A stretch of 63,338 nt of DNA, the filler included, from Basidiobolus ranarum (lineage: Eukaryota): the NCBI GenBank assembly GCA_040143965.1. It is 30 parts of 30 records of this genome, joined end to end, with 100 filler letters (N's around TTAATTAATTAA, not from the genome) between each part and the next. Parts side by side here need not be neighbours in the genome. Positions count along the whole stretch, not along the records: positions 50,793 to 52,801 come from JASJQH010003927.1; 29 more parts are not named here. One strand, 5' to 3'. The translations under genes and the position numbers were made by a program. Within the stretch, counting starts at the first letter, position 1; each line of letters begins with the position of its first letter. Shown in pieces: positions 1 to 61,539 of the stretch. A model generated the notes under the pieces. The model saw nothing but the letters and a program-made list of their open reading frames with translations. It was not told where the DNA came from and did no database searches.

Positions 1-49
1 TCTAGTTAAGTTTTATAATTAGAATTGGATCAATCTATACACTAGTATA

Positions 50-4364: not shown

Positions 4365-4670
4365 TATACATCCAATGAATGTTAAAGCTGCTTTTTTGAA
4401 TGGTGAGCTTGCTGAGGAGATCTATATGGACTAGCCAAATGGATTTGTGGACCCAAAAAACCCTAAAAAAGTGTGCAGACTCTGAAAAACACTCTATAGC
4501 TTAAAACAATCTCCAAGAGCTTGGAATAGCAAGCAAGATGCTTTTTTGGAAACACTCTAATTCCAAAAGAGTAATGCTGACTATAGTATCAACTTCAGGC
4601 CAGATAAGACAAATCCAGTTTTATTAGCCTTATATGTAGATGACCTTGTTATAGCAACCAATGACTTGAG
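4365..4670 (+). mobile_element. Ty1/copia reverse transcriptase fragment
   Basis: MNVKAAFLNGELAEEIYMD*PNGF...LYSLKQSPRAW...LALYVDDLVIA. Confidence 0.92.
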
Positions 4671-6270
4671 TGTTCTTCTTTGGAAGCCACTTTCTGCCTA
4701 CTTGCACTGCGTTTTTCCCTTCATACTTTTGAAAATACTCCTCAAGTACTTTGACTATTTTCATACATCCTTGTAGTGTGACACTACTGAGGGTGCTTTG
4801 CAGTGTTTGTATGGCTTTTTGCTTGCCTTTAACTTTGGGGCTAATTTCAACACTTTGGAAAGTACCAGTTGAGGTTGGAGAGCCATGAGTTTTATTTGCT
4901 GGTGTTTTGGCTTGTTGAGAGGTGCCAGGTGTTGGATAAACTTTTGAATTTAGCACTCTTCCAACTGGTGTACCTGGTTCCATGGTGAAATTAAACTTTT
5001 TTGCCAGTATATCTGACACTGGAAATCACATCTTTGTAATAGTATGAAGAATTTGGTAAGTGGGACAGTAGAGCCAAAACTAACTGGCTCCCTCACTTTT
5101 CCCTTGGGTTTAATAACTTCCAGCTCTTTCATTACTTCTTTAGCTGCTGTTATTTCTTTTCCAAGTTGATAATTGGGTACATTTTTGAGATGTTTCATGA
5201 ATAGGCCTTTACTAGCCCAATTGCCATTTGCTTGTAAAAACCCAGGATAAGCCATATGAAATAAGTCAAGAACCTTCAGAGCAATGCCTGATTTTTGGAT
5301 TTTCCACAATTGACTCAAATTCAGGTGATTTTGGGCAAGAAACTGCACAGTTTCCAAAATGTTAAACCACTCACCATCAGAGCAAATAACAGCAACTCTA
5401 ACATTCAGAGTCTTTTGGTATGCCGGTTTTCTCATGAGATTTCTACTTTCATGTGCCTAAGCAATTTTGGGTCAATTGAAATCCGGTATGAGAATGGATG
5501 GAGAGAGCAGCATGTTGCTGTAGCTCAAGTACGGCATTCTGAAGCTCTTAAATCATTGTTGGGTGAGCTTGACTAGTTGCTTCTGAACACTGCATTAATT
5601 GCAATATTGCAACATTATTGCTTGTTGCAGCCTGTATAGCAACTTCATAGGTTTTCCTTATGATTGCATACAATTCATTATGGTTTCTGCCTGTAATTCC
5701 CTTGTTGTAATAATTCTATCCAAATTCTCTATGGAGGGTTGTTTAATAGTGGGCAAAGCAGCCATTTTGGAAGTTGATGGCCTTGATGGTGTTTTGGTTG
5801 AACTTTGCTCAACTATTGATTTACTTCAAAATTGGGGGATTACAATCTCTTCACTTGCACTATTGCTGGAAAGGAACATATCAGATAAATTGATTAAAGC
5901 ATCATCATTACTTGAGTTAGTTTCCGGCATGTTAATGCCTTCCAAAGTGGATAGTGGATCACTAGACTGCTCCTCAATTAAGTCCTCTGTTCTTGATGGT
6001 TTTTTTCCTTTTGTGCCAACAGGCTTTGGCTTGGAAGCAAATTTTTACTTGGATTTTGAGAATTTTTTGAATGGCATTGAAATTTTCAAATGGTAAACTT
6101 GGTGTAATGAAAATGTTTAGAAACAGCTTATATTAAACCAAAAGTGCCATCCATTACCAGAAATATCTTGCAAATCCCCTGGTGACTCATCTGTGACACC
6201 CTCTCAGAATCAGTAGATGCGATTGATGGGCTATGTCTAAAATACCACTGTTACATAGGAGATGCTATTC
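4671..6270 (-). mobile_element. CMC/Tnp2 transposon: accessory ORF X (minus strand, frameshifted) and region upstream of tnp2
   Basis: Overlaps the same sequence at 16968..17780, 20270..21103, 45940..46471, 6841..7304 and 14645..14749. Two of these contigs are physically linked to tnp2. Confidence 0.8.
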
Positions 6271-6370: not shown

Positions 6371-6840
6371 AGAGTACTTGGGTGTAGCGCCTAAGACAAG
6401 CCAGGACAAGACAAGACTGGACAAGGAAGATACTTTGGTAAGAATCTTTATTGATAACTGGTGTTGATCAAACTGAGGTCTGATCAAGGAATACATGGGG
6501 CTTATATAGATATTGCAAGGTGAAACATAATATACTGAATAGGGAATATACTGTGGCAATTTCAAGAGTTGGGGTGTTGGGGACTACAAGGACCAATACA
6601 AAGAGGGATGATGTAAGGATGATCGAATGACCTTCCATGGAAGGTCTTGGTATGACATGATTAGTTAGATTTCATGAAATCTTCCATAGAACAAGACTTC
6701 CATATAAGGTAATCTGGATGAACTAACACAAGATTGCCAAGAAAGGATGGCACAGCAGATATGATGTCATAATCTAATAATAGAAGAGTTCTATTTGCAG
6801 TAGATTGGTATGCCAAGATTAGAATCATGACCAATACACA
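6371..6840 (-). repeat. LTR family Y (gypsy-like), 5' part
   Basis: Near-identical to 50900..51355 and 54720..54909. TATATAA and AATAAA lie on the minus strand. The minus strand begins TGTGTA at 6840, where CMC sequence resumes. Confidence 0.75.
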
Positions 6841-7304
6841 TTTACCACCTGAACACTAATTTGTAACCTCCAAAATCCCCAGTTCTCTTGGATAAAAACT
6901 CCTGATTATTTTTAGAGAGTTCTTCTAACCCAAGGTTTAGCTCCAATCCAACACAAGTTAGTATCAATATCTTCATCAAAGCCCACCATTGTATTGATGT
7001 TGCTGAATGAACTTTCTTCCAGCTATCCAGTGAAAAATTCAGCATTATTATGCCACTCTAAGTTCTTCCCAGATATCCCTGTGGTCTGCACCAAACTGAA
7101 TATCAAATTGAATGTTCTTCTTCTGAACTCACCTTCTGCACACTGGCACTGCATTTTTCCCTTTGTACTCTGGAAAAAACTCTTTAACCACTTGTATTAT
7201 CTTTATGAATCATTGTAGTATGGCACTACACAATGTCATTTGTAATGTTTGGGCAGCTCTTTGCTTGCCTTAAAGTTTGGTGCTAATTTTGACACTTTGA
7301 AAAA
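6841..7304 (-). mobile_element. CMC transposon, 3' part of ORF X
   Basis: Aligns to 45668..46135. Confidence 0.75.
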
Positions 7305-8391
7305 CCTTAACAAAAATAAAATCAATTTGATCCTGATTGGATCCACCCTCCAAAATAGCAAAACTGTCAGAGAACCATCACACTATTGGTGACTTGCATT
7401 CTGCCAGGGATTTTGATGGTGTGATGGCAGTTTCTTGATGGTACTTTGATGGTATTCATACATGTTAAAATATTAATCTTCAAATTTGGCATGCATTAAT
7501 CAACATCCAGCAATTCTTGCAAAAATCTAATTTCCAAATGGCAAATTACTGGGCTTACTGCTGTAGGGATTTGAATTAATATGCATGCCTTTATTTAGTT
7601 ATTTTAGGCTTTTTATTCCAGCCATAATGAGAATCAAAAAATACAAGAATCTGGTTGTGTCTAGTCCCTAAATATACACATACTTGACTGAATAGACATA
7701 TCTCAGCAACATCAATATGCTTAACCAGCAAACTAATGGTGAAAAAATTGCTAAACATCTGAAATTTTAAATACCACTGACACTTGGTAAATAGCTGACT
7801 CTTGTTACCATTCACAATGAGAATAAGCTCTTGGATTTTGGCAAATTTCCATAAAGAACTCAGCTAATATATCCCCAACTTAAAGTGAACAAATGTCCTG
7901 CCACAAGTTCATGTGTCACTACTTGAATAGATTACCCCATGGCTAAAACAATATTACTGTATATCTCAATCTATCTCACCACAAAGTCTGTCTTGCAGCT
8001 TTCCTAAAAATACCATCAGATTTTTACACAAACAAATTCGTCCAAATTATAGAGGTACTTACCCTGTGTCCATGGATTGGGCTTTGCTGCTGTTATTGTG
8101 CTCAAACAATGCAAAAACCCATGAGCACAATGAAAAGAGCCCTTTGTTGGAAGGTTAATATACTCTGGAGTCTCCTTAACCCATTGCATTATATCCATCA
8201 CTGATTTTGCTTAAACATTCTTAATCACATTAGCAAATGGTAATACTGACAATTTCACATGGAGCATTATTTTACTGCAGGTGTGCTCCATTGGGAACTC
8301 CCAGAATGTATAGCAAGGGCTTATAATCTCTAAGCATTGTGAAAGATGCAGCAGGGAATGTACTGCATACCAGCATAGCTTCAGTCTTTGT
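7305..8391 (-). mobile_element. CMC transposon right end with tnp2 3' region, nested in another copy
   Basis: Terminus CCTTAACAAAAATAAAA at 7305. Decayed tnp2 C-terminal motif (H..QCLEIISPCYTFWEFPMEHTC); aligns to 51710..52688. Confidence 0.85.
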
Positions 8392-12731: not shown

Positions 12732-14310
12732 ATCTTTGTAAATACCTTGGCCACAGCAAGCTGATCCAAGAGTTAGTTAATTATTGGCAAAGGGTATTAA
12801 CTTCTGACTGCAATGCTGTTTAGGCCTGGACAGTCAAAACAGAGATAGAGGAATGCCTCCATTTTCTTAACAAATAAGTTTGGAGATTCTGCTGGAGACA
12901 TTGAATGCTTAACAAATCCTTTCTCCATTTTTTCTGCTATATACTTGTTGAGAATGCTGAGTTATGGCTGGATCAGTCCATAGATAGGCTCAAATGGAGG
13001 TTGTTTTCTTTCTTGGAGATCTAGAGAGCAGTCATATGGGTGATGAGTTGGGAGTATGACAGATATCTTCTGGTATTTGGGTGGGAGTTTAGGGACTATA
13101 GGTTTTGTTGGTTTCACCTCTTTAGCATCATTGTCTGTAGAAATTGGATTCTTAGCAGTTTAGAGGACTCTGGCTGATGATGAGCTGAATACTTTGCCAA
13201 TTGGCAAATACAAACTAGGAGATGGAACTTGCTTCAACCCAATAATCTTCTTCTTCAGTTGATTAGTGGGTTGTGCTGCATGAGCCATGAGTTACAAAGG
13301 ATGAAAGAATGGTGAGGTGAGTCAATAATAATAAAGGCTATTACTTCTTCAAGAGCAGTGGACATGAGTGTCGTAAAAGTTGTCTCATGTGTTATAGTGC
13401 CTGATGATAGCAGTTTTCTATCAATTACTTCTACCAGGACTGGACTATATTTCTTGATTGTTGGGATTGAGTGGGATTTTTCAAAGTCAGAATCAATACA
13501 ACAGGAGGAAGCCCTGTATCAAGAAGAGCAGTTGCTTTTATAGACTTGGAATTGGGTAGTGGGAGTGTAATGGGCAGCTTTAATGGCTAGTAAAACTGCA
13601 GAGATTGCAATGTATGGTGGAGAAGCATTTTCAAAGGTGGTTGGCCCAACTGCATGCCCATTATTGCATCTGGGTATTAGTACTTTCTGATGTTTGAGGA
13701 AAGTTATCTTTTGCTGGCATAGTATTAATTTTAAATCCAGGACTCTTTTTGGGACAGTTTCTGGCTGCATATCAAGTAGCTTCACAATAGAGATATAGAT
13801 TCTGTCATTGGCATTGATATTTCTCCTCAGGGCTAAGCCTTGTGAATTGAGTTCCATCAATTTGCATTGAGTCATTTGCTTGAGCTGTATCTTGTATTTG
13901 ATAGGAGTGAGATCTGAAAGTAGTTGAAGAGAGGAAGTAGAAAGGAGCTATTTTTTTTTGGTATCTTTCAAACAGCCTGTTGTCACATTTAACTGCCTGG
14001 TAAATAGCATCAGTCAAGGTCACTGGGGCAGCCATAGCAAATTAAAGATCCTCAATATTTTCTGCAAGTCCATATTGAAACTGGCTGATCAGGGCATATT
14101 ATTCCCAGTTGAGATCACAGCCAAGAAGGCAAAATTTTCCAGCATATGCTGATGCATGATTTCACCCTTGTTTAAGTGCACAATGCTTGGTTGATGAAGT
14201 TCTTTTCTTGTCTGCATTTCCTAATGTGGCTTCCAGATCAACAACAAAGGCAAGGAAGTTGAAAAGAAGTGGAGATTGATTTTCCATCAAAGGAGCAAAC
14301 CATGACACTT
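12732..14310 (-). mobile_element. Ty3/gypsy (chromovirus-like) gag-protease-RT, pseudogenised
   Basis: Gag WFAPLMENQSPLL..LKQG..ASAYAGKF..LNW..ALISQFQYGL..AVKCDNRL; protease ALLDTG..IDSDF..SWLMQHNPLIN; RT start LPTHHPYDC..KGFVKHSMSPA..YPLPII..LLDQL..AKVFTK. Order is PR then RT. Confidence 0.92.
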
Positions 14311-14456
14311 CATAAGGGTGCTATTTTTAGTATATCCCATCAATATGATCAGCCAAATCAGAGATGGTGTGACAGATGAGTCATTAGGGTATTTACCAGA
14401 TATTTCCAGTAATGAGTGCTAATATCTGTTTATATTAAGTTGTTTCTAAGCAATTT

Positions 14457-14749
14457 CCCTAACAGAAATACAGGATTGTTTTTGTAGGAAGACCCTCACA
14501 ATTTTAGTCCATTTGGGATTGACTGTTTACTTACCATCATATAATTGTCAAGTTAGATTTGATTTTAATCAATTTTTTCAGTTTCAGAAGTGAAATTTCA
14601 AGATCTCACAAAATAGTTGCGCATGATTGGCTAAAATCTGGAGAGCCGTGAGTTTTATTTGCTGGTGTTTTGGCTTGTTGAGAGGTGCCAGGTGTTGGAT
14701 AAACTTCCGAATTTAGCACTCTTCCAACTGGTGTACCTGGTTCCATGGT
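14457..14749 (+). mobile_element. CMC transposon left end (internally deleted copy)
   Basis: Starts CCCTAACAGAAATA, the inverted match of the right terminus TATTTTTGTTAGGG. Aligns to 45431..45625 and then jumps into ORF X. Confidence 0.8.
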
Positions 14750-14849: not shown

Positions 14850-15814
14850 AAATGATGCTTTGTGTGAAATTGTCAGTGTTAGTGTATGATAATCTGATTA
14901 CCAATGTATCGGCAAAACTAGTGATGGTTGTAATGCAATGGGTTAAGGAGACTCCGGTATATACTAACTTGCCAACAAAGGGCACTTTTTAATGTACTCA
15001 TGTGTTTTTGGATTGTTTGAGCACAATAATAGCAACAAAGCCCAATCGATGGATACGGAGTAAGGACCTCAATAATTTGACTGATTTGCTTGTGTGATAA
15101 TCTAATGGTATTTTTAGGAAAGCTGCAAGACAGACTTCTTGGTGAGATAGATGGAGATATGGAGTATCACTGTTTTAGCCATGGGGTAATCTATTCAAGC
15201 AATGACACATTGACTGGTGGCAGGATATTTGTTGACTGCAAGTTGGTGATGTATTTGCTGAATTCTGTATGGAAATTTGCAAAAATCCAAGAGCTTGTTG
15301 TCATTGTGAATGGTAACAAGAGTCATCTAATTGCCTAGTATCAGTGCAATTCAAAATTTCAGATGTTTAGCAACTTTTTCATCATTAGTTTCCGGGTAAG
15401 CATATTGATGTTGTTGAGTTATGTCTAATCAGTCAAGTATTTGCATATGTAGAGACTAAACACAACAAGATTGTTGTATTTTTTGATTCTCATTATGGCT
15501 GGAATACATATCCTAAAATATCTACATAAAGGCATGCATATTAATTTGAACTCCTGCAGCAGTAAACCCAGCAATTTGTCATTTAAAATTAGATTTTTGC
15601 AAAAATTGGTGGATGTTGAATAATGCAAGCCAAATTTGAGGATCGGTACTTTAACATGTATGAATACTGTTAAAATAAGATCAAGAAACCGACATCACAC
15701 CGTCAAAATTCCTGGCAGCATGCAAGCCACCAATATTGTGGCTGTTCTCTGATGGTTTTGCTATTTTGGAGGGCGGCTCTCATCCGGATCATATTGATTT
15801 TGTTTCTGTTGGGG
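14850..15814 (+). mobile_element. CMC transposon tnp2 3' region and right end
   Basis: Aligns to 51810..52688 and ends TTTCTGTTGGGG. Confidence 0.85.
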
Positions 15815-16557
15815 CAGTTGTTTCTTGCAAATCCAAGCAATGACTGCATCACTACAGAGAAATGTATATCCAGTGATAGAACTACTGTCCTCAATATCAC
15901 ATCCCCAATCTGCATCACTAAACCCAATTAGATACTTACTCTTATAAGAAATTGTGTATCTTAATCCCATATCAATTGTCCCCTTCAAATATCAGAAAAT
16001 CCACTCAACTGCTGCATAATGCTTGGATCCTGGGTTTTGCAGATGGTGGCTAATTACACCCACTGAAAAAGAGATATCTGGCCAGAATTCAGTGATAGAA
16101 TATATCACACTGCCTACCATAGTTTGAAAAGAGAACTCAGGGCTTTCAAATGACATATTTTGAGCCATGTATTGCAAATTTTCATCAATTTTGATGTGAT
16201 TATGACTAGTTTCACACCTGGATCCATGAAAGTTGCTACTGGCTTACAATTCTCCATCCTGTATCCTCTGAGAATGTCTGAGATGTATTTAGATTGATCA
16301 GAGTGATAGATTTGCTCAATATATCTGTATGGATCTCCAGGCCTAAAAAATATGTAAGTCTACCTAAATTGGTCATCTTGAATTGGACTGATAAATCTCT
16401 TTTAGTGTTCCTGAGAGCTTCATCATTATTGGTAGCTACTATCAGATCATCCACATATAAAGCAAGTATCACCTTACTGACCTTATCAGTCTTAAAGATG
16501 ATCCCAAAATCTGTTGTACTCTTTTGAAATCAAGTGATTGCAAATATGTGTCTATGT
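15815..16557 (-). mobile_element. Ty1/copia RT-RNase H fragment
   Basis: LALYVDDLIVA, FKMTNLGRLTYFLGLEI, LIGFSDADWG..SITGYTF. Confidence 0.92.
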
Positions 16558-16559
16558 TA

Positions 16560-16867
16560 CCCAAACAAAAATAAAATCAATTTGATCCTGATTGGATCCA
16601 CTCTCCAAGTTAGCAAAACCGTCACAATATTGCTGGCTTGCATTCTTCCAGGGATTTTGATGGTGTGATGGCGGTTTCTTGACGGTATCTTAATGGTATT
16701 CATACATGTTAAAATATTGATCCTCAAATTTGGCATTTGTTATTCAATAACCAGCAATTTTTGCAAAAATATAATTTTCAAATGGCAAATTACTGGGTTT
16801 ACTGTTGTAGGAATTCAAATTAATATGCATGCCTTTATTTTGATATTTTAGGCTTTGTATTCCGGCC
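16560..16867 (-). mobile_element. CMC transposon right end
   Basis: TA|CCCAAACAAAAATAAAATC terminus plus subterminal ACC(G/A)TCA motifs. Confidence 0.85.
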
Positions 16868-22958: not shown

Positions 22959-23219
22959 CTATACAAAATGTGCATGATCCAAGGCCATACATTCTATGCT
23001 AGGCTTGGGTCTAAAACAGTGGGTGCAAAACTTCGATACGTCTTTCTTAACAACATTTTTCCACGTGTAGTAAATGCTTCTGTCCACGGATTTCATATGT
23101 GCTATCAAATCATCAATGGTAGAGAAGTCTCGCATATTGATAAAGCTGTTGTTTGGTACATAGGAGTCTATATCAGAGGCACCGTAATAAACCGGAATGG
23201 CACCGCTGCTGAGAGCATC
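22959..23219 (-). CDS. Alpha-1,3-fucosyltransferase (GT10) C-terminus, 5' partial; absent from the ORF track
   Basis: DALSSGAIPVYYGASDIDSYVPNNSFINMRDFSTIDDLIAHMKSVDRSIYYTWK matches the GT10 motif region; open to TAG at 22959. Confidence 0.88.
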   Translation of the reverse strand, partial: DALSSGAIPVYYGASDIDSYVPNNSFINMRDFSTIDDLIAHMKSVDRSIYYTWKNVVKKDVSKFCTHCFRPKPSIECMALDHAHFV

Positions 23220-23320: not shown

Positions 23321-24860
23321 AGCTTCAAAGCACATGAGAGCCTTAATGCTAATACTGATTTTACTGAACTCAAATCACTGAATTTCAGCAGTCACAACAC
23401 CGCAAACAAAGTAGCTATTCTGTTACTCACCTCTGGCTATACAGGAAATTCAAAAGCTTTTATCAGCTTGAATCCACAGACACTATAATGAATTGGGTCG
23501 GATGCAACCATGTAGCTGGCTAATTGCTAATCATATCACACCCATTGTAGCAGGAGCAAATCAAGTTCAAGTAGCAGCGTCAGTGATCACCTTGGAGCCA
23601 TTGACACTTTTAGACATGGCTGAAATATTCGAAGTAGGCTATACTTTTGCTCCCAACTTTTTTTTAGCCAACATCAAGAAAGATCTTAGAACTACTCTAT
23701 AGTTTATCCAAGCTGAAGCGCATCAACTCTGGAGTAGAGGTCAATTTGGTAGATCTAGGGAATCAACTCTTACTCACACTGAAAGAGCAAAGGCTGAGTG
23801 CACTGGGATCGTAGCGCCAGGCTTTGGAATGACAGAAACTTGCGCTAGCTGTATCTATAATAAACTGTTTTCATTTAGTAATACTGGGAAGGACTTTGGT
23901 ACATTAGGGTATCCTTCCAGCGAAGTGTGCTTGCAAATCATTGACGAGGATGATCAAATATTGCTAGCTGGCTCATGCGGGAATCTGCAAATATTGTGCC
24001 CTCAGCTATTCCAGAGTTACTACAACAATCCTGAGGCTAATGAACAAGCCTTCACTAAGGATTACTGGTTTAAAACAGGAGACACAGCCAATCTTGCCTA
24101 TAGATCCCTGTAACTTGTTGGAAGAACCAAGGATAGTATTATTCTTTGTGGTGTGAACTATTACAATAATGAACTTGAGGCTGCATTACATGATATAGAT
24201 CATTCATCGCTGTTTGCCCTATCCGGCCAAAAGGCTCTCAAACCAAACAAGTTGCCATTTTCTATCTTCCTACATTTTTGCTATCTGATACTCATTCCAG
24301 TATTCAACAAAAACTGATTCAGTTTTGCTCTCAAGCACCTCACGTAATATTACCACTCTCAAAAAACATCTTGACTAAAAATTCATTGGGCAAGTTATCA
24401 AGAGGGAAACTACGTCAACGATATGAAAAAGGGGAATTTGATGAATTCTTGAAGATTGTTGAACAAATTGTCCAAACAAGAAAGGCTTTGAAATATAAGA
24501 AGCCAGCCTCCAATACTGAAATAGCTTTGGCTTCTTTCTTGTGTAAGATATTTGATGTACCTTCAGATGATATGTGTGTAGAAGAGAACTTCTTCAGTAT
24601 GGGAGGTTCGTCTCTAGAAGTCGTACAGTAAGTGTATTTTGTTTAACCGATGATTTTATGCATTTATTAAGTAGGTTTCTATTGTATAGATACAAAGCAA
24701 GAATTATTGAACACTTCAATCTAGCCAAGGTAAGTGTAGAGTTGCACTACGGAATAGCCATGACTTTTGTACTAATCCATATTTTCCATTACAGAATTGG
24801 CCAGAATTATGCAACATCCAACTATTCGAGCACTTGCAACACATTTGGTTGAATCCAAAT
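23321..24860 (+). pseudogene. NRPS-like adenylation-thiolation gene of the AtrA/TdiA (aryl-pyruvate, quinone synthetase) type, disrupted
   Basis: LLLTSGYTGNSKA, YTFAPNFFLA, PGFGMTETCASCIY, YYNNPEANEQAFTKDYWFKTGD, *LVGRTKD, KNSLGKLSRGKLRQRYEKGEF, and T-domain NFFSMGGSSLEV. Intron 24628..24689 and a donor at 24730. Contains stops, frameshifts and deletions; no TE domain follows. Confidence 0.88.
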
Positions 24861-29666: not shown

Positions 29667-30245
29667 AAGGAGGTGAATGTCTCATCAGCCGGTAGCTCCG
29701 TTGGTACAGGTGGTATGGTGACCAAGCTGATTGCAGCTGAGCTAGCCACTGCAGCTGGAGTTCATACAGTGATCACTAGAGGAAGCGAACCTGAACGAGT
29801 ATTCAATATCATCAACTTTTATGAAGGCGGTGAGCAAGGAAGCAAGTCTGAGGTAGCTTTGCACACTTGTTTCATTGCCAAGCCAGTACCAATGGTCGAC
29901 CGTAAATGGTGGATCTTGCATGGAATTCACACTGCTGGTACAGTCGTGGTAGATGAAGAATCGGGAAGTATGCTCGCAAAGGACCCTAGTGCTCTTACAA
30001 GTTCTCATATCTTACGTGTGGATGGGCAGTTTGTGCCTAACCAAGGTGTATCTATTGCCATTGAGAAGCCCATCAATAAAAATGGAGAGATGGGCACTGT
30101 TACAGTTGGCAAAGGACTAATCAACTATTCCAGTAAGGAATTAAATCGTATTAAAGGATGCCAAGAACAGTTAGTATCTCATATTCTAGGATATAGCGAG
30201 TCCCCTTTAATGGTTGAGCGAGAAAACTTTGTTGCTCTCGTCTAA
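29667..30245 (+). CDS. PRO1: Glutamate 5-kinase, C-terminal part with PUA domain (5' partial)
   Basis: GSSVGTGGMVTKLIAAELATAAGV, HTCFIAKPVPMVDRKWWILHG, GKGLINYSSKELNRIKGC..ILGY..ERENF. Confidence 0.93.
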   Translation, partial: KEVNVSSAGSSVGTGGMVTKLIAAELATAAGVHTVITRGSEPERVFNIINFYEGGEQGSKSEVALHTCFIAKPVPMVDRKWWILHGIHTAGTVVVDEESGSMLAKDPSALTSSHILRVDGQFVPNQGVSIAIEKPINKNGEMGTVTVGKGLINYSSKELNRIKGCQEQLVSHILGYSESPLMVERENFVALV

Positions 30246-33082: not shown

Positions 33083-33154
33083 GCCTGCTTAGCGCAGTGG
33101 TAGCGCGTCAGTCTCGTAAACTGAAGGTCGCCAGTTCAATCCCGGCAGTAGGCA
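33083..33154 (+). tRNA. tRNA-Thr(CGT)
   Basis: Acceptor GCCTGCT/AGTAGGC+A, D-arm GCGC-AGTGGTA-GCGC, anticodon arm TCAGT-CTCGTAA-ACTGA, T-loop TTCAATC; 72 nt. Confidence 0.95.
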
Positions 33155-36590: not shown

Positions 36591-38024
36591 GATCAAACTT
36601 TGATCCCAAATATTTGTATTTTAAGCAAATATCAACAGTGCCTTTCAAATATCTGAAAATTGACTTGACTACTATGATTTGATCAGATCCATAGTTTTGA
36701 AGATATTGGCACTTAACTCCCACAGAGTATGCAATATCTAGCCATGTTCCAATCATGATATATCTCAAACTACCAACCATAGATTAATAAGGAAATTTAT
36801 GGCTTTCAATTGAATCCAAGAATATCTGATTTGAGGCATTTTTGGTCAAGTTAGGATTTGTCTCCATTGGGATAGATACTGGATTACATTCTTCCATTTT
36901 AAGCTTCTTTAGTATATCTAGAATATACTTGGATGGGTTTAAAATTATTGTTTTGGTAGCTCTAACTATCTTAATTTGGATTCCAAGATAGTATATCAGT
37001 TCACTAAGATCAGTCATTTTGGATTTGGCAGATAAACTGGATTTGGCTTTCTCCAAAGTCTTCAAGTAATTGGTTGCTATAATAAGGTCATCTACATATA
37101 AGGCTAATAAAACTGGATTTGTCTAATCTGGCCTGAAGAAGATGCTATAGTCTGCCACAGTATATTCCCTATTCAATATATTTTGCTTCAACTTGCAATA
37201 TTTATATAAGCCCCATGTATTCCTTAATCAGACCTCAGTCAGATAAATGCCAGTTATCAGTAAAGATTCTTCCCCAAGTATCTTCTCTATCCAGCCTTTC
37301 TTGTCTTCTCATGTCTTGTGGTCTACACTGAAGTACTTTCCTGCCTTCTAGCCTCTTGTCATTGTTTCCAGTCCCTGTCCAGTTCCCTATTGTGAAATAT
37401 TGTGTTTTCCAGAGTCTGAAAACTCTTTTAGGCTTTTATGGGTGCACAAATCCATCTGGCTGGTCCATATAGATCTACTCAGCAAGCTCACCATTCAAAA
37501 AAACAGCTTTAACATCCATTTGATGTAAAAGAAACTGATATTTAGCTGAAATTGCTAAAATCAATCTAGTTGAATTGAACTTTCCTACAGGAGCAAAAGT
37601 ATTTATATAATTTATCCCTGGTATTTAAGAATAGGTTTTGGCTACCAGTCTAGCATTGTACCTTTCTATATTGCCATCAGAGTTGTATTTAACTCTAAAC
37701 AACCAGTGGCAGCCAATTGATTTTCTTTCATCAGATAAGTTGGTTAAAATCCAAGTATGCTCATTAATCAAAGCCCGGTACTCATCAGCCATTGCAGATC
37801 TCCAAGATTTCATGTGAGGGCCATTCAGGGCCTCTTTTACAGTCTGGGGTTCATGTATTTGAGCTGTGCATGCATAGGCTTGATTTTGGGACTCATTGAT
37901 ATAGTAATAAGGGCATTTTCTGATCCTATTTGATCTCCTGGTTTGGGATAAAGGTACTACAACTTCTGGTATACTCTGCTACTGCTGATGCATGAAATTT
38001 TGAAGGCTTCAGTGATGCAGATTG
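36591..38024 (-). mobile_element. Ty1/copia RT fragment containing an LTR-Y piece (about 37154..37397)
   Basis: SIGCHWLFRVKYNSDGNIERYNARLVAK, KMTDLSELIYYLGIQI, MVGSLRYIMIGTWLDIAYSVG. Confidence 0.92.
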
Positions 38025-45430: not shown

Positions 45431-46471
45431 CCCCAGTACAAATATGAGAATTGTTATTGTTGTAAAACTGTCACAATTTTAATCCATTTGGGATTGATCA
45501 TTTACTTACCATCCTAAAATCATCAAGTTAGATTTGATTTTAATGAATTTTTTAAATTTCAGGAGTGACATATCAAGATCTTGCAAAATAGTTGCACATG
45601 ATTGGCTACAATCTCTGAGAACTATGGATCAACACATGTGCAAAAAACATAACTCATATTTTAGACTTTTACCACTTGAACACTAATTTGTCACCTTTGA
45701 GATCCTTAGTTTCTTTGATATATTCTCCTTAATATTTTTATAGAGTTCTTCATACCCAAGTTTAGCTTGTATCCAACACAAGTTTGTATCAATATCTCCA
45801 TCAAAGCCCACCATTATATTAATATTGCTGAATCAACATTCTTCCAGCTAGCTGGTGGATACCCTGCAATATTGTGCTAATCTATATTAGGTTCTTCCCA
45901 GATATCTGCATACTTGACACCATTCTCAATGTCAAGTTGAATGTTCTTCTTCTGAAGCCACTTTCTGCATATTTGCACCGCTTTTTTCCCTTCATACTTT
46001 TGAAAATAATCCTTGATTACTTTGACTATTGTTATACATCCTTGTAGTGTGACACTACTGAGGGTACTTTGCGGTGTTTGTGTGGCTTTTTGCTTGCCTT
46101 TAACTTTGGGGCTAATTTCAACACTTTGAAAAGTAGCAGTTGAGGTAGGAGAACAATGAGTTTTATTTGCTAGTATTCTGGCGTGTTGAGAGGTGCCAGG
46201 TATTGTATAAACTATAAATTAACACTCTTCCAACTTGTGTACCTGGTTCCATGGTGAAATTAGGATTTTTTGCCAGTATATCTGACTCTGGAAATAATGG
46301 TGTGAATAATTTGGTAAGCAAGACAGTAGAGCCTAAACTGACTGGCTCTTTTGCTTTTCCCTTGGGTTTACTAACTTCCTGCTCCTTGTGTACCTCTTTA
46401 GCTGCTATTCTTTCTTTTCCAAGTTGATAATGCATACATTTTTGAGAAATTTTGTGAATAGGCATAAACTA
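45431..46471 (+). mobile_element. CMC transposon left end and 3' half of ORF X (minus)
   Basis: Aligns to 14457..14645 and then 4671..5215. Confidence 0.82.
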
Positions 46472-46976
46472 NNNNNNNNNNNNNNNNNNNNNNNNNNNNN
46501 NNNNNNNNNNNNNNNTTAATTAATTAANNNNNNNNNNNNNNNNNNNNNNNNNNNNNNNNNNNNNNNNNNNNGGTTTTTTTCCTTTTGGGCCAGCAGGCTT
46601 TGGCTTGGAAGCCAATTTTGACTTAGATTTTGAACGCTTTTTGAATGGCATTGAAATTTTCAGATGGTAAACTTGGTGTAATATTGCATGGAAATTATAT
46701 AATAAACTACATCAGCAAAGTTAATCATAGTTTGATCCAAATCAATTTATTAAGCGCATATATTGAAACGGCTCAAAGCAGAATGCATTATGCTTGATAA
46801 CACTATAGGAAATTAACTTTGACATTTTAACCAATAATATAAAAAGATCCCTAATTCTGATTGAAACCAATAGAGTCCAACATCATATATATACATGGTA
46901 GCTACATATCATGTAAAAGCAGATTCTTCCTGATTCATAACCTACTCTGGTAGAGGAAACCACCACTTCCAAAATT

Positions 46977-47663
46977 TTGTGCACACAGTCAAATGAAGGT
47001 GTGGGTGGCGCAAAGCAGCGCACACCTAATGATTTTACAGATGCCCAGGTATCCACTATGAATTCTTGCTTGGATATATGGGAGTTATTGATAAACTTGA
47101 CAGAAGCTGGGGAAGGGGGCATTAGACAAAAGTGGAAGCAACTTTCAACTCTGCTTTGGAGAGAATACTATATCTTCATGCCTTCAGAAGTCTGCAAGAA
47201 AATATACAATAAGACTCATGAGGATAGAAAGCATGAATTGAGAAATAGGAATTTTGATTTTGAGTCCGCAAAGACACAATTCCAATTGCATTTTTGCTTG
47301 CATGGACCAGAAGCAATTGTTGCAGCCTCAACTTTAGAGACAAAAGATGTTCTAAATAGATATCTACCACTGCTCAATGAGACTTTGCAGCAACTGTTGA
47401 TGGAGGTTGCAGAGTTCAAAACAACATTTCAGGACACTATGGCAAGAGTAATCAACAGAGGTGTAAAGAGAAAAGCAAGACAATTTATTGAATCAGAAGA
47501 TATTCCCAAAGGCAAATTGGAGCAGTCTAGACCATTGCAGAGATGTACTAGATCACTCCAAATCAAAGAGACTCCTGACAAGGTATCTATTTCACAAGAA
47601 GAATCTACACAACTCACCACTAGAATTGAGGTAACACCTCCAACAAGGGCAAGAGCCCAATGA
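46977..47663 (+). CDS. Unknown ORF with a Myb/SANT-like N-terminal motif and coiled coil, probably transposon-borne
   Basis: FTDAQVSTM..W..KWKQLSTLLWREY..EVCKKIYN spacing; CpG-depleted and flanked by TE pieces. Confidence 0.45.
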   Translation: MCTQSNEGVGGAKQRTPNDFTDAQVSTMNSCLDIWELLINLTEAGEGGIRQKWKQLSTLLWREYYIFMPSEVCKKIYNKTHEDRKHELRNRNFDFESAKTQFQLHFCLHGPEAIVAASTLETKDVLNRYLPLLNETLQQLLMEVAEFKTTFQDTMARVINRGVKRKARQFIESEDIPKGKLEQSRPLQRCTRSLQIKETPDKVSISQEESTQLTTRIEVTPPTRARAQ

Positions 47664-48204
47664 GTTGGTTCATCAGCTAGTAGTACACATTGACAGCAAT
47701 GCCAGCTTGGAAGAGTCCGTGATGTTTCTCCCATTTTTGATGAAGAGCAAGCAGTCAATGAAGAACCAGAAAGAGGACAGCCCCATATTCACACATTGTA
47801 GCACGCAGGTTGCAGAGTTCAAAACAACATTTCTGGACACTACGGCAAGAGTAATCAACAGAGGTGTAAAGAGAAAAGCAAGACAATTTATTGAATCAGA
47901 AGATATTCCCAAAGGCAAATAGGAGCAGTCTAGACCGTTGCAGAGATGTACTAGATCACTCCTAATTGAAGAGACTCCTGACAAGGTATCCATTTCACAA
48001 GAAGAATCTACACAACTCACCATTAGAATTGAGGTAACACCTCCAACAAGGGCAAGAGCCCAATGAGTTGGTTCATCAGCTAGTAGTACACATTGACAGC
48101 AATGACAGCTTGGAAAAGTCCGTGATGCTTCTCCCATTTTTGCTGAAGAGCAAGCAGTCAATAAAGAACCAGAAAGAGGAGGGCTTGCATTCTCACTAAT
48201 TGTA
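47404..48204 (+). repeat. Recent tandem duplication, period 403 bp
   Basis: Units start AGGTTGCAGAGTTCAAAACAAC at 47404 and 47807 and differ by few substitutions. Confidence 0.93.
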
Positions 48205-48582
48205 CCCTAACAAAATAAAATTGATTTGATCCGGATTGGATCCACCCTCCAAAGTAGCAAAACCATCAGAGAACCGTCACAATATTGCTGGCTTGCATTC
48301 TACCAGGGATATTGATGGTGTGATGGCGGTTTCTTGATGGTATCTTAATGGTATTCGTACATGTTAAAATATTGAACCTCAAATTTGGCATGCATTATTC
48401 AATATCCAGCAATTTTTGCAAAAATATAATTTTTGAATGGCTAATTACTGGGTTTACTGCTGTAGGAATTTGAATTAATATGCATGCCTTTATTTAGATA
48501 TTTTAGGCTTTGTATTCCAGCCATGATGAGAATCAAAAAATACAAGAATCTTGTTGTGTTTAGTCTCTACATATGCACATAT
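48205..48582 (-). mobile_element. CMC transposon right end
   Basis: TA|CCCTAACAAAATAAAA terminus. Confidence 0.9.
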
Positions 48583-50692: not shown

Positions 50693-50846
50693 NNNNNNNN
50701 NNNNNNNNNNNNNNNNNNNNNNNNNNNNNNNNNNNNTTAATTAATTAANNNNNNNNNNNNNNNNNNNNNNNNNNNNNNNNNNNNNNNNNNNNGGAGAACA
50801 GGGATGGAGAAAATGCTACAGGCTAGTATAAGTAGTCTGATCAAAC

Positions 50847-51360
50847 TGTCACAATAAGGAACTGGACAAGGACTGGAAACAAAATAAGAGGCTAGAAGGC
50901 AGGAGAATACTTGGGTGTAGACCATAAGAAAAGACAAGACAACACAAGACTGGACAAGGAAGATACTTTGGCAAGAATCTTTATTGATAACTGGTGTTGA
51001 TCAGACTGAGGTCTGATCAAGGAATACATGGCGCTTATATAGATATTGCAAGGTGAAACATAATATACTGAATAGGAAATATACTGAGGCAAGTTCAAGA
51101 GTTGGGGTGTTGAGGAATACAAGGACCAATACAAAGAGGAATGAAGTAAGGATGACTAGGTGATCTTCCATGGAAGGTCTTGGCGGAAATACACTATGTG
51201 TGGGATGACATAATTGGTTAGGTTTCATTGAATATTCCAAAGAACATGACTTCCATATAAGGTAATCTGGATGAACTAACACAAGATTGCCCAGAAGGGA
51301 TGGCATATCAGATATGATGTCATAATCTAGTAATAGTGAGTTTTATTTGCAGTGGATCAG
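50847..51360 (-). repeat. 5' LTR of family Y followed by a self-complementary PBS (50834..50844)
   Basis: The minus strand ends ...ATTGTGACA. TATATAA at 51041-51035 and AATAAA near 50985. Confidence 0.8.
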
Positions 51361-51361
51361 A

Positions 51362-52688
51362 TAGATAGAATCAAAGTTTGAATTGATTGGAGAATGCTTG
51401 AAAATATTGGGATACCATCATATTTTACCAGGACTCCCATCAATAGCCACTCATCTAGGCATTTATTCAAATGCAAAGACTGGAAGTATTAGATTTGTAT
51501 ATATTCAAGTGGAATCTTGAAAAGATTTCTGCCTGATGAGGATTGGCAACATTGGGGGTTGTTTGTTGCTATTGTCAATATATTCTTAGAGCATCAACTC
51601 ATATTGGCAGATCTCAGGCAGATACAGTAACTGTGCAAAGATTTCATAATTGAATATGAAAAACTTTATTACAGGTTGAAAGAAGACAGACTGAATCTAT
51701 GATGGTATTCAATACAGTCCCTGTTGCACCTTTCACAATGCTTGGAGATTATAGGCCCTTACTATACTTTCTGGGAGTTCTGAATGGAGTGCACCTGTGG
51801 TGAAATGATGCTCATTGTGAAATAGTCAATATTACCATATGCTAATCTGGTTAACAATGTATCAGCAAAATCAGTGATAGATGTAATGTGATTGGTTAAG
51901 GAGACTCCAGAGTATATCAAACTGCCAAGAAAGGGCTCTTTTCAATGTGCACACAGGTTTTTGCATTGTTTGAGCATAATAACTGCAACAAAGCCCAATC
52001 CATGGACACAGAGTAAGTACCTCTGCAACTTGGACTAATTTGCTTGTGTGATAATCTGACATTATTTTTAGGAAAGCTGCAAGACAGACTTCTTAGTGAG
52101 ATAGATCAAGATATGCAGTATTATTGTTTTTGCCATGAGGTAATCTATTCAATCAATCACACATCTACTTGTGGCAGGACATTTGTTGACTGCAAGTTGG
52201 GGATGTATTTGCTGAATTCTTTATGGAAATTTGCCAAAATCCAAGATCTTATTCTCATTGTGAAAGGTAACAAGAGCCAGCCATTTGCCAAGTGTCAGTG
52301 GTATTCAAAATTTTGGATTTTTAGCAATTTTTCCAGCATTAGTTTGCTGGCAAAGCACATTGATGTTGTTGAGTTATGTCTAATCAGTCAAGGATGTGAA
52401 TATGTAGAGACTAAACACACCCATATTCTTGTATTTTTTGATTCTCATTATGGCTGGAATACAAAGCCTAAAATATTGAATAGAGGCATGCATATTAATT
52501 TGAATTCCTACAGCTGTAAACCCAGTAATTTTCTATTTGAAAGTTAGATTTTTGCAAAAATTGCCTGATATCAAATAATATATACTAAGTTTGAGGATCA
52601 ATATTTAAACATGTATGAACACTATCAAAATACCATCAAGAAACCACCATCACACCATCAAAATCCCTGGCAGAATGCTAGCCACCAA
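51362..52688 (+). mobile_element. CMC tnp2 3' half and subterminal region
   Basis: IPSYFTRTP..FKCKDWK..EYEKLYY..LLHLSQCLEIIGP; continues the 19086..19270 frame. Confidence 0.9.
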
Positions 52689-52901
52689 TTGCAATCTGGT
52701 GTTAGTTCATCCAGATTACCTTATATGGAGGTCATGTTCTTTGGAACATTCCATGAAACCTAACCAATCATGTCATCCACCCAAAGTGTATTTCTGCCAA
52801 GNNNNNNNNNNNNNNNNNNNNNNNNNNNNNNNNNNNNNNNNNNNNTTAATTAATTAANNNNNNNNNNNNNNNNNNNNNNNNNNNNNNNNNNNNNNNNNNN
52901 N

Positions 52902-54664: not shown

Positions 54665-54909
54665 TGTCACAATAAGGAACCGGACAAGTACTGGAAACAA
54701 TGACAAGAGGCTAGAAGGCAGGAGAGTACTTGGGTGTAGACCACAAGACAAGACTGGACAGGGAAGATACTTTGTCAAGAATCTTTATTGATAACTGACA
54801 TTGATCAGACTGAGGTCTGATCAAGGAATACATGGGGCTTATATAGATATTGCAAGGTGAAACATAATATACTGAATAGGGAATATACTGTGGCAAGTTT
54901 GAGAGTTGG
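54665..54909 (-). repeat. LTR family Y 3' part, in host intergenic DNA
   Basis: Matches 50847..51105 but has a different flank. Confidence 0.85.
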
Positions 54910-58665: not shown

Positions 58666-59124
58666 TACAAAAACTATAGTCCAATCAGATTTAAGTGCAC
58701 TGTTAATGGTAGCAAAAGTGGGAGAAGCTTCCATACCAGGCTTCAAGTAAGTGAGAATTATCTAGCTTCAGTGATGAATGATGTTGAAGGTGCCTGGGAC
58801 AAAAGATTTAGAGACTCTAATTTCCTTCCATTTCCTGGAGTATTTCCCAATAGAGTTCATATCAGAAGTATTCTTGACACATTTCCAGTCAGAATAAACA
58901 GGCCCAAAAGCAACCAAAAGCTGTTCTATTTTGGCAAGTGTTGAAAGTCTGGTGACCAATATTTCTCCGTAAATAATTTCAATAGCAAATACAAAGCCCA
59001 CTGTGTAAAGTTCCAGGCTTTGACAGATTTGGAAGGAAACATCATTTGGTTTAGTGGGCCACATCCAGGGAGACACTGTGACAAAAGGCTTTGGGTTGAG
59101 AGGCATGCACCATTTGTAAGATAT
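58666..59124 (+). mobile_element. PIF/Harbinger or ISL2EU-type DDE transposase fragment; absent from the ORF track
   Basis: SILDTFPVRINRPKSNQKLFYFG-[about 51-nt insert with stop]-KYKAHCVKFQALTDLEGNIIWFSGPHPGRHCDKRLW. Confidence 0.8.
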
Positions 59125-61331: not shown

Positions 61332-61536
61332 TGGATATTGAATAACGCATGCCAAATTTGAGGATCAATATTTTAACATGTATGAATACCGCCAAGATAC
61401 CGTCAAGAAACCACCGTCACATCATCAAAATCCCTGGCAGAATACAAGTCAACAATATTGTGATGGTTCTCTGATGGTTTTGCTATTTTGGAGGATGGAT
61501 CCGATCCGGATCAAATCGATTTTATTTTTGTTAGGG
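61332..61536 (+). mobile_element. CMC transposon right end, least CpG-decayed copy
   Basis: Ends TTTTTGTTAGGG|TA and retains ACCGTCA motifs and GATCCGATCCGGATCAAATCGAT. Confidence 0.92.
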
Positions 61537-61539
61537 TAT

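What the first reader, a model, noticed from the sequence alone, without database searches (positions are those of the whole stretch)
50834..51041. Tf1-style self-priming LTR retrotransposon
On the minus strand, 2 nt after the LTR end, TTGATCAGACT (50844-50834) is perfectly complementary to AGTCTGATCAA (51007-50997). The latter lies 34 nt downstream of the start of TATATAA, within an initiator-like TCAGT. This is the geometry of S. pombe Tf1, where the first 11 nt of the mRNA prime reverse transcription without tRNA. Other LTR-Y copies lack this flank, as expected for 3' or solo LTRs. An extra TTGATCAGAC just upstream of the predicted start could hairpin-sequester the motif in the 3' LTR transcript (inference).
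Basis: partly seen in the sequence, partly recalled or inferred. Interest (0 to 1): 0.7.

Follow-up and report, generated by a model that had tools for sequence, protein, structure and literature searches.

The report
Probable self-priming LTR retrotransposon, fungal
One long terminal repeat of a fungal retrotransposon is followed by an 11-base site that exactly pairs with the predicted first 11 bases of its own transcript, the known trick by which elements such as yeast Tf1 start copying themselves without a tRNA; it rests on a single copy, so it is a plausible but ordinary new example.

Summary
On the minus strand a ~513-bp LTR (51359..50847) ends in CA. Two bases later, TTGATCAGACT (50844-50834) is exactly complementary to AGTCTGATCAA (51007-50997), which starts 34 nt after TATATAA. 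A third copy, TTGATCAGAC (51020-51011), makes a local hairpin. Random flanks give such a match at 0.14% of sites.

The window is a chain of 30 unlinked ~2-kb contigs, and only 54 nt of internal sequence follow this LTR. A host gene fragment is 87% identical to a Basidiobolus ranarum protein, so the source is an early-diverging fungus.

In favour:
- There is no TGG/tRNA-type primer site.
- The predicted leader RNA closes on the 5'-end/PBS duplex.
- AATAAA plus a GU-rich tract fit a U3-R-U5 layout.
- The flank is not the continuation of the interrupted host repeat.

Tf1-like self-priming is the best explanation (about 0.6).

Untested: the transcription start, conservation of the flank in other 5' LTRs (none are available), and any link to a pol gene. 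A chromovirus-like gag-PR-RT fragment exists at 12732-14749 but could not be connected. The PBS also resembles the "conserved hairpin site" of fungal GalEa copia elements.

Verdict: new member of a known kind, modest interest.

The parts
50847..51359 (-). LTR-Y, read as the 5' LTR (U3-R-U5). The 5' edge lies at 51359 (TG) to 51362; the 3' edge is at 50847 (CA).
   Evidence: The 3' edge is shared by copies ending at 54665 and 37397. The 5' edge is shared with the copy at 6805, and similarity to the uninterrupted host repeat in contig 19086 stops there.
51035..51041 (-). TATATAA, the putative TATA box.
   Evidence: Read directly. Invariant in the 4 aligned copies.
51011..51020 (-). TTGATCAGAC, an upstream arm at the end of U3. 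It is identical to 10 of the 11 PBS bases and forms a 10-bp hairpin with the start of R.
   Evidence: I5. Fold of the U3-R context gives -19.4 kcal/mol with this hairpin.
50997..51007 (-). AGTCTGATCAA, the predicted first 11 nt of the transcript (self-primer, start of R).
   Evidence: Exact complement of the PBS. It starts 34 nt after the TATA box at a C-A step. The start site itself is inferred, not measured.
50980..50985 (-). AATAAA, the putative polyadenylation signal. It sets R at roughly 51007 to ~50955.
   Evidence: Read directly. Conserved in 3 of 4 copies; AGTAAA in the fourth.
50925..50950 (-). GU-rich tract GTCTTGTGTTGTCTTGTCTTTTCTTA downstream of AATAAA (start of U5).
   Evidence: Read directly. 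Its role is inferred from general knowledge of poly(A) signals.
50846..50869 (-). Predicted 9-bp stem-loop abutting the PBS, in the position of the Tf1 U5-IR-like structure.
   Evidence: MFE structure. No informative covariation in the two other copies.
50834..50844 (-). TTGATCAGACT, the primer binding site, 2 nt (GT) after the LTR end. With the last A of the LTR it forms the near-palindrome AGTTTGATCAGACT.
   Evidence: pair probabilities 0.88-0.999 for primer nt 1-9.
50793..50833 (-). Remaining 41 nt of internal leader, cut off by the contig end. No copy elsewhere in the window.
54665..54909 (-). LTR-Y copy (3' half, cut by the contig end). It has an identical hairpin and R start, and an unrelated flank (TATACTAAGA...). 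Read as a solo or 3' LTR.
6371..6805 (-). LTR-Y copy cut by the contig start before its 3' end. Its R start is AGTTTGATCAA (1 change).
37153..37397 (+). LTR-Y 3' half lying antisense inside a copia RT gene, where it replaces RVT_2 profile positions 95-160.
52691..52801 (+). Inverted LTR-Y fragment (LTR positions ~70-181) at the other end of the same contig.

Best explanation
The stretch 51359..50793 (minus strand) is the 5' LTR and the first 54 nt of the leader of an LTR retrotransposon of a Basidiobolus-like fungus. The element primes its own reverse transcription, as Tf1 does.

Proposed steps:
1. Transcription starts about 34 nt after TATATAA, at A51007 (inferred).
2. The first 11 nt, AGUCUGAUCAA, fold back over R-U5 onto the PBS UUGAUCAGACU, 2 nt beyond the LTR. 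The complementarity is shown; the folding is predicted.
3. The element's RNase H cuts after nt 11, and the freed 3'-OH primes minus-strand strong-stop DNA through U5 and R. This step is inferred by analogy with Tf1.
4. The remaining ~40 nt of R (up to the poly(A) site after AATAAA) support the first strand transfer (inferred).
5. The U3 copy TTGATCAGAC is absent from the 5' end of a correctly started RNA. It is present at the 3' end and in transcripts started upstream, where it would lock the primer sequence into a local hairpin (predicted structure; function inferred).

The superfamily of the element is not known.
For: - Exact 11-bp complement, placed 2 nt after an independently defined LTR end.
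- Mock flanks give such a match at 144 of 103,940 sites, and at 7 of 103,940 for the TATA+24..41 window.
- No TGG within the flank. No match of 7 nt or more to the only tRNA in the window.
- Both the MFE and the centroid of the 215-nt leader pair nt 1-10 with the PBS. Pair probabilities are 0.88-0.999 for nt 1-9. The MFE is -33.3 kcal/mol against -24.0 when nt 1-11 are kept unpaired. Z-scores are -1.85 (215 nt) and -2.72 (183 nt).
- The order TATA, C-A start, AATAAA, GU-rich tract gives a coherent U3 (~352 nt), R (~50) and U5 (~110).
- The TATA-to-AATAAA block is the best conserved part among copies: 92% pairwise identity against 84-89% elsewhere.
- Contig 19086 carries the host repeat uninterrupted. 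Similarity stops at the LTR 5' edge, and the sequence after the LTR 3' end is not its continuation (181 of 500 shuffles score as well). So this is not a simple solo LTR.
- The host is a fungus. Self-priming is established for Tf1/Tf2 and proposed for Tj1, Tcn1 and elements 'from fungi to vertebrates' (passages of PMC7175516, PMC4600332, PMC5341516).
- A chromovirus-like element is present in the same assembly.
Against: - There is only one LTR-internal junction, so there is no replication and no covariation.
- The transcription start is predicted from a TATA box only.
- 54 nt of internal sequence give no gag or pol, so the element may be non-autonomous, rearranged or dead.
- The contig is a 2-kb unplaced piece of a nested repeat cluster. 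It has another truncated, inverted LTR-Y at its far end, so rearrangement at the junction cannot be excluded.
- The motif is built around the palindrome TGATCA and occurs three times within 190 nt. That would also fit a repeated protein-binding or dimerisation motif.
- The leader fold is only modestly better than shuffles (9 of 200 shuffles fold as well for the 215-nt version).
- Changes in the other copies' hairpin arms are not compensatory.
Confidence: 0.6

Rival explanations
1. Chance or rearrangement. The LTR is a solo LTR, a 3' LTR or a recombined fragment, and the 11-mer in its flank matches the LTR by accident or through a local duplication of the TTGATCAGAC motif.
For: There is a single instance. 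The contig is a nest of truncated repeats. The TATA-primer-PBS geometry without the LTR-end condition is expected about 0.5 times per window.
Against: The probability per LTR end is 0.14% for any LTR position and about 0.007% for the start-site window. The flank is not the continuation of the interrupted repeat. After the shared 10 nt the flank bears no likeness to the LTR, so it is not a partial LTR duplication.
Confidence: 0.13
2. A palindromic 'conserved hairpin site' like that of fungal GalEa Ty1/copia elements. These have no tRNA PBS and instead carry a palindromic 9-mer directly after the LTR. On this reading the site works by RNA-RNA pairing of unknown kind (dimerisation or hairpin), not by 5'-end self-priming.
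For: In section 10 of PMC5445492 (read in full), CHSeq1 is CTGATCAGT or CTAATTAGT in 85% of families, and is palindromic together with the last A of the LTR. Here the last A plus GTTTGATCAGACT is a 14-nt near-palindrome (6 Watson-Crick pairs plus one T-G). TTGATCAGA matches CTGATCAGT at 7 of 9 positions. The host is a fungus, and copia fragments dominate the window.
Against: No complementary second element (CHSeq2) lies in the 41 nt downstream; the published distance is 12-41 bp. The partner here lies upstream in the LTR, which those authors looked for and did not find in GalEa. The LTR is 513 bp and starts TGA, against TGT and a mean of 235 bp in GalEa. All copia RTs in the window have YVDD and KARLVAKGYSQ, not the fungal-GalEa QTDD and KSRLVI.
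Confidence: 0.12
3. Priming by a host RNA (a tRNA half, an internal tRNA site or another small RNA). On this reading the LTR complement is incidental.
For: The PBS core ATCAGA lies in the same register after the LTR end as in the common initiator-tRNA-Met PBS TGGTATCAGAGC (motif quoted in PMC3977881). Half-tRNA priming exists in some copia lineages (PMC6317226).
Against: There is no TGG, so no pairing with a tRNA 3' CCA end. Only 6 contiguous bases are shared with the Met PBS. No match of 7 nt or more to the one tRNA available. I could not screen the host's tRNA set because no genome is held.
Confidence: 0.05
4. The three TGATCA-centred copies are binding sites for a dimeric DNA-binding protein (promoter or leader regulation) and have nothing to do with priming.
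For: The motif is palindromic and repeated three times around the predicted start. The block is the best conserved part of the LTR.
Against: A binding site needs only the core. Here 10-11 nt are identical, and one copy sits exactly where a PBS must be. Two of the copies lie downstream of the TATA box.
Confidence: 0.05

Closest known systems
Tf1/Tf2 of Schizosaccharomyces pombe, with Tj1 of S. japonicus and Tcn1 of Cryptococcus (Tf1/sushi group, Ty3/gypsy chromoviruses)
   Same: The PBS just after the 5' LTR is complementary to the first bases of the element's own transcript. The length is 11 nt, as in Tf1 (PMC7175516 passage). There is no tRNA PBS. A predicted stem-loop lies next to the PBS duplex. 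The host is a fungus.
   Different: The superfamily is unknown: no gag, pol or chromodomain is linked. The start site and the RNase H cut are not shown. An extra copy of the PBS sequence at the end of U3 forms a hairpin with the R start; none of the passages I read mention such a feature for Tf1.
[quoted passage not shown]
   Same: A tRNA-independent, palindromic TGATCAG-type motif directly after the 5' LTR, including the last A of the LTR. The host is a fungus.
   Different: The pairing partner is upstream in the LTR, not 12-41 bp downstream. The LTR is longer and has other termini. The GalEa RT signatures are absent from the window's copia fragments.
Plant Ty1/copia TAR lineage and moss Tcn1 chromoviruses, predicted to self-prime (PMC6317226)
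   Same: Self-priming is predicted from sequence alone. It shows the mechanism is not confined to one superfamily.
   Different: Those are plant elements, and this host is a fungus.

Membership tests
Self-priming LTR retrotransposons (mechanistic class defined by Tf1) | The PBS next to the 5' LTR is complementary to the 5' end of the element's own mRNA. | tested here: inconclusive
   The complementarity is exact over 11 nt, 2 nt after the LTR. That the complement is the mRNA 5' end rests only on TATA spacing (34 nt) and a C-A step. No RNA data were available.
Self-priming LTR retrotransposons (mechanistic class defined by Tf1) | Absence of a tRNA-complementary PBS. | tested here: met
   No TGG in the flank. 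No match of 7 nt or more to the window's only tRNA. The full host tRNA set was not available.
Self-priming LTR retrotransposons (mechanistic class defined by Tf1) | An RNA structure that brings the 5' end to the PBS, with a U5-IR-like stem-loop. | tested here: inconclusive
   The MFE and centroid contain the duplex and an adjacent 9-bp stem. This is prediction only, with no covariation.
Self-priming LTR retrotransposons (mechanistic class defined by Tf1) | RNase H cleavage after the primer, and cDNA carrying the self-primer. | not testable with these tools
   Needs cDNA or biochemical data.
Tf1/sushi group (Ty3/gypsy chromoviruses) | Ty3/gypsy gag-pol with PR-RT-RH-IN order and a chromodomain at the integrase C-terminus, linked to this LTR. 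| not testable with these tools
   Only 54 nt of internal sequence exist. A chromovirus-like gag-PR-RT fragment lies on another contig, 12732-14749. It matches Ty3 RT 4ol8_A at E 2e-8. 16 of the 18 long relatives I scanned have a Chromo domain. No sequence link to LTR-Y was found.
Fungal GalEa copia with conserved hairpin site | CHSeq1 9-mer directly after the LTR, palindromic with its last A. | tested here: inconclusive
   The site is a 14-nt near-palindrome including the last A, and matches CTGATCAGT at 7 of 9 positions, but it is offset by 3 nt.
Fungal GalEa copia with conserved hairpin site | Complementary CHSeq2 12-41 bp downstream. | tested here: not met
   No complement in the 41 nt available downstream. 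The end of the contig leaves the last few nt of the published range unseen.
Canonical tRNA-primed LTR retrotransposons | PBS starting TGG and complementary to a tRNA 3' end within a few nt of the LTR. | tested here: not met
   The flank reads GTTTGATCAGACTACTTATAC.

The most novel reading that the evidence does not exclude
The element carries a three-part switch. The primer sequence at the start of R can pair either with the PBS, which allows priming and is possible only in RNAs that begin exactly at 51007. Or it can pair with an identical decoy at the end of U3, which is present at the RNA 3' end and in transcripts started upstream. Start-site choice would then decide whether an RNA can be reverse transcribed. 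In addition, the palindromic TGATCAG-type site after the LTR may be the same device as the unexplained 'conserved hairpin site' of fungal GalEa copia elements. That would explain the site as a self-priming or self-pairing PBS, and would extend self-priming to a second superfamily in fungi.
Probability: 0.15. Interest if true: 0.6.

Novelty: new member of a known kind. Interest (0 to 1): 0.32.

Why it matters
Self-priming is a rare alternative to tRNA priming. Of the papers I read, only those on fission-yeast elements gave experimental support for it.

A clear case in a zoopagomycete-grade fungus would widen its known range. It would also offer a natural variant with a built-in decoy hairpin, which bears on how start-site choice controls retrotransposon competence, as shown for Tf2 (PMC5341516).

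The likeness to the unexplained hairpin site of fungal GalEa copia elements gives a concrete hypothesis to test on full genomes.

As it stands, this is one junction in a fragmentary assembly.

Tried and rejected
1. Plant origin and the TAR lineage. I first took the window for a plant, from copia and tnp2 Pfam hits, and leaned on PMC6317226 (self-priming predicted for plant TAR copia). One search overturned this: a glutamate 5-kinase fragment is 87% identical to a Basidiobolus ranarum protein, and the next hits are early-diverging fungi.

2. More copies from outside the window.
- No genome is held.
- Exact-pattern scans gave 0 hits in viral contigs, metagenome contigs and genome contigs.
- Earlier findings were empty.

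3. Linking LTR-Y to a coding region.
- The 54-nt flank has no other copy in the window; the best hits are 9-11 nt.
- All-against-all contig BLAST shows LTR-Y only next to unrelated nested repeats.
- The stretch upstream of the chromovirus-like fragment (contigs 4249 and 44461) ends in breakpoints, not in LTR-Y.

4. A second self-priming family. The copia LTR starting at 2683, and the one at 36593, show no conserved complement between leader and LTR.

5. Apparent likeness of the flank at 54664 to this flank (TATACTA, GCCTGTAG). It is not significant: 45 of 500 shuffles score as well.

6. The near-match TTGATCAGAGT at 16294 lies in copia RT coding sequence, so it is chance. TGGTATCAGAGA at 17725 lies in a coding-like repeat, not at an LTR end.

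7. Rfam gave no credible family on the contig. The sigma-70/terminator scan is irrelevant to a eukaryote.

8. Pfam on four ORF sets (28, 40, 139 and 89 ORFs) found copia-type, tnp2 and DDE_Tnp_4 transposon domains plus a few host-gene hits (PUA, AMP-binding, Glyco_transf_10) and some marginal ones. It found no RVT_1 or Chromo. The gypsy fragment was recognised only after reading through three TAA stops as X.

9. The ORF of the host repeat (52017-52544) has no match in PDB, Pfam or NCBIfam.

PMC1369541 and PMC1563812 are not held.

Full report
**What the window is.** The 63,338-base window is not one stretch of chromosome. It holds 58 runs of exactly 44 N, in pairs around TTAATTAATTAA. These separate 30 contigs of 2,024 down to 2,007 bp, in order of length. 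The finding lies in the contig 50793-52801, so coordinates outside that range are not physically linked to it.

One contig carries the PUA-domain end of a glutamate 5-kinase. It is 87% identical to a protein that its source names Basidiobolus ranarum. The next hits, at about 50%, are Glomeromycota, Mucoromycota and Kickxellomycotina. The source is therefore a Basidiobolus-like early-diverging fungus. My first guess of a plant, from copia and tnp2 Pfam hits, was wrong. The copia integrase fragment finds nothing closer than 49% identity.

**The observation.** The minus strand reads ...CCTTATTGTGACA GT TTGATCAGACT ACTTATAC....
- TTGATCAGACT lies at 50844-50834.
- AGTCTGATCAA lies at 51007-50997 and is its exact reverse complement (pair I4).
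- TATATAA lies at 51041-51035, 34 nt before A51007. A51007 sits in TCAGTCT, which fits the initiator consensus YYANWYY (recalled, not from a call).
- TTGATCAGAC at 51020-51011 forms a 10-bp inverted repeat with 51006-50997 across a 4-nt loop (pair I5).
- The 11-bp pairing cannot be extended on either side.

**The repeat is an LTR-like unit with independently defined ends.**
- BLAST of the contig against the window and an alignment of four copies show that similarity to the copies at 54665-54909 and 37153-37397 stops at 50847, after TGTGACA.
- Similarity to the copy at 6371-6805 stops at about 51357.
- Contig 19086 carries an uninterrupted copy of the repeat into which LTR-Y is inserted. Its similarity to the finding's contig ends at 51363/51362. 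This fixes the 5' edge at 51359 (TG) to 51362.
- The unit is thus about 513 bp, TG...CA.
- It carries TATATAA, then AATAAA at 50985-50980, then a GU-rich tract at 50950-50925.
- This gives a coherent layout: U3 about 352 nt, R about 50 nt, U5 about 110 nt.
- No two copies lie in direct orientation on one contig, so "LTR" is an inference from these features.

**Is it more than chance?**
- In the window, 37 of 89,496 positions have an 11-mer with a perfect reverse complement in the preceding 513 nt.
- I used every site of the 26 contigs that lack LTR-Y as a mock insertion flank. 144 of 103,940 sites have an 11-mer at offset 0-5 complementary to some LTR-Y 11-mer.
- Only 7 of 103,940, all from one locus near 12126, are complementary to an 11-mer starting 24-41 nt after the TATA box.
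- A scan for the TATA-primer-PBS geometry that ignored LTR ends found one case, this one. Shuffled contigs gave a mean of 0.49, so that geometry alone proves little.

The adjacency to an independently defined LTR end carries the weight. Allowing for a few tens of repeat ends inspected, the coincidence is unlikely. It is still a single instance.

**Is this a 5' LTR?**
- The two other copies with a 3' end have unrelated flanks. Local alignment scores are matched by 45 of 500 and 425 of 500 shuffles. One of these copies lies antisense inside a copia RT gene, where it replaces RVT_2 profile positions 95-160.
- For the finding's copy, the sequence after the LTR is not the continuation of the interrupted repeat seen in contig 19086 (181 of 500 shuffles score as well). 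It is therefore not a simple solo LTR with a target duplication.
- The 54 nt after the LTR have no other copy in the window. They end at a contig end, as expected where an assembler meets a multi-copy internal region.

**Priming.**
- The flank has no TGG, so it cannot pair with a tRNA 3' CCA end.
- The only tRNA gene in the window (Thr-CGT) has no complementarity of 7 nt or more.
- The host's full tRNA set could not be screened.

Folding the predicted leader (51007 to 50793, 215 nt) gives these results:

| Measure | Result |
|---|---|
| MFE and centroid | nt 1-10 pair with the PBS |
| Pair probabilities, nt 1-9 | 0.88-0.999 |
| MFE, free fold | -33.3 kcal/mol |
| MFE, nt 1-11 forced unpaired | -24.0 kcal/mol |
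| Z-score, 215 nt | -1.85 |
| Z-score, 183 nt | -2.72 |

- A 9-bp stem-loop (50869-50846) abuts the duplex. This is where Tf1 needs a U5-IR-like structure (the title of Lin and Levin 1998, seen in the reference list of PMC7175516).
- In the U3-R context, which exists at the RNA 3' end, the local 10-bp hairpin forms instead (-19.4 kcal/mol).

All of this is prediction.

**What is known.** From passages read with paper reading:
- The first 11 bases of Tf1 RNA are complementary to its PBS, and RNase H cuts between bases 11 and 12 (PMC7175516).
- Tj1 of S. japonicus has a PBS complementary to the 5' end of its mRNA. [quoted passage not shown]
- For Tf2, start-site choice decides whether the RNA carries the self-primer (PMC5341516).
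- In plants, self-priming is predicted for 12% of surveyed elements: TAR copia and moss Tcn1 chromoviruses (PMC6317226).

**Which superfamily?** This could not be settled.
- Pfam scans of four ORF sets (28, 40, 139 and 89 ORFs) found copia-type, tnp2 and DDE_Tnp_4 transposon domains, plus a few host-gene and marginal hits, but no RVT_1 or Chromo.
- Read through three TAA stops as X, its last 132 codons match the Ty3 reverse transcriptase 4ol8_A at E 2.2e-8.
- A HMMER search of 1.84 billion representatives gave 12,771 hits at E up to 0.001.
- Of the 150 best I scanned 18 of the 24 proteins that are at least 1,100 residues long. 16 of those 18 carry a C-terminal Chromo domain at E up to 1e-5.

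I found no sequence link between it and LTR-Y.

**A second lead.** PMC5445492 (section 10 read in full) reports that fungal GalEa copia elements have no tRNA PBS. Directly after the LTR they carry a 9-mer that is CTGATCAGT or CTAATTAGT in 85% of families. It is palindromic together with the last A of the LTR. A complementary 9-mer lies 12-41 bp downstream. The function is unknown, and the authors found no complement in the LTR.

Here the last A of the LTR plus GTTTGATCAGACT is a 14-nt near-palindrome, and TTGATCAGA matches CTGATCAGT at 7 of 9 positions. Three things argue against membership:
- The partner lies upstream in the LTR.
- No partner lies in the 41 nt downstream.
- The window's copia RTs show YVDD and KARLVAKGYSQ, not the fungal-GalEa QTDD and KSRLVI.

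I keep this as a rival, and as part of the most novel reading.

**Verdict.**
- Tf1-like self-priming is the best explanation, at about 0.6.
- Membership of the Tf1/sushi family is untested.
- The U3 decoy hairpin is the one unusual feature, and its role is conjecture.
- Searches for Basidiobolus with retrotransposon and LTR found 13 papers, of which 7 were listed. None of the 7, by title or abstract, deals with priming. I did not read them.
- This is a new member of a known kind, of modest interest. It needs the full genome and 5'-end RNA data to be settled.

Noticed in passing
window 1-63338: The window is a chain of 30 contigs of 2,024 to 2,007 bp, sorted by length and joined by N44-TTAATTAATTAA-N44 linkers. 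Neighbouring features across linkers are not physically linked.
   Followed up: yes
window 29667-30242 (+): The PUA-domain end of a glutamate 5-kinase is 87% identical to a protein named Basidiobolus ranarum, which places the source among early-diverging fungi.
   Followed up: yes
window 12732-14749 (-): A degenerate Ty3/gypsy gag-PR-RT fragment. 16 of its 18 scanned long relatives are chromoviruses. All three stops in the last 132 codons are TAA, which could reflect C-to-T mutation of CAA codons.
   Followed up: partly
window 36787-37978 (-) with 37153-37397 (+): A copia RT gene in which a 245-bp piece of LTR-Y, in antisense, replaces RVT_2 profile positions 95-160. This is either an insertion with a deletion or a recombination product.
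   Followed up: partly
window 50834-50847 (-): The PBS with the last A of the LTR forms the near-palindrome AGTTTGATCAGACT. Its core ATCAGA lies in the same register after the LTR as in the common tRNA-Met PBS TGGTATCAGAGC. This may hint at how a self-primer arose from a tRNA-primed ancestor.
   Followed up: no
window 45615-46147, against 14639/14640 and 4666-4875: A 533-bp segment is present in contigs 44461 and 4249 but absent from the otherwise collinear contig 12732. In contig 4249 an ORF runs through the junction, so contig 12732 may be a deletion derivative.
   Followed up: partly
window 51360-52689 and copies at 7304-8387, 14850-15814, 16558-16867, 48204-48581, 61332-61538: An abundant repeat of at least 1.4 kb with a 176-aa ORF (52017-52544). 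The ORF has no match in Pfam, NCBIfam or PDB sequences. LTR-Y is inserted into this repeat.
   Followed up: partly
window 47404-47777 and 47807-48180: A 374-bp direct duplication at 96% identity, 403 bp apart, inside a contig with two unassigned ORFs (46941-47660 and 47676-48206).
   Followed up: no
window 51004-51342 (-): A 113-codon open frame runs inside U3 of LTR-Y. It is broken in the copy at 6371-6855, and the strand is pyrimidine-rich, so it is probably an effect of composition.
   Followed up: partly
window 22962-23219 (-), 23703-24110 (+), 33083-33154 (+), 58945-59124 (+): Other fragments: a family 10 fucosyltransferase, an AMP-binding enzyme, a tRNA-Thr(CGT) gene and a DDE_Tnp_4 (Harbinger-type) transposase piece.
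   Followed up: no
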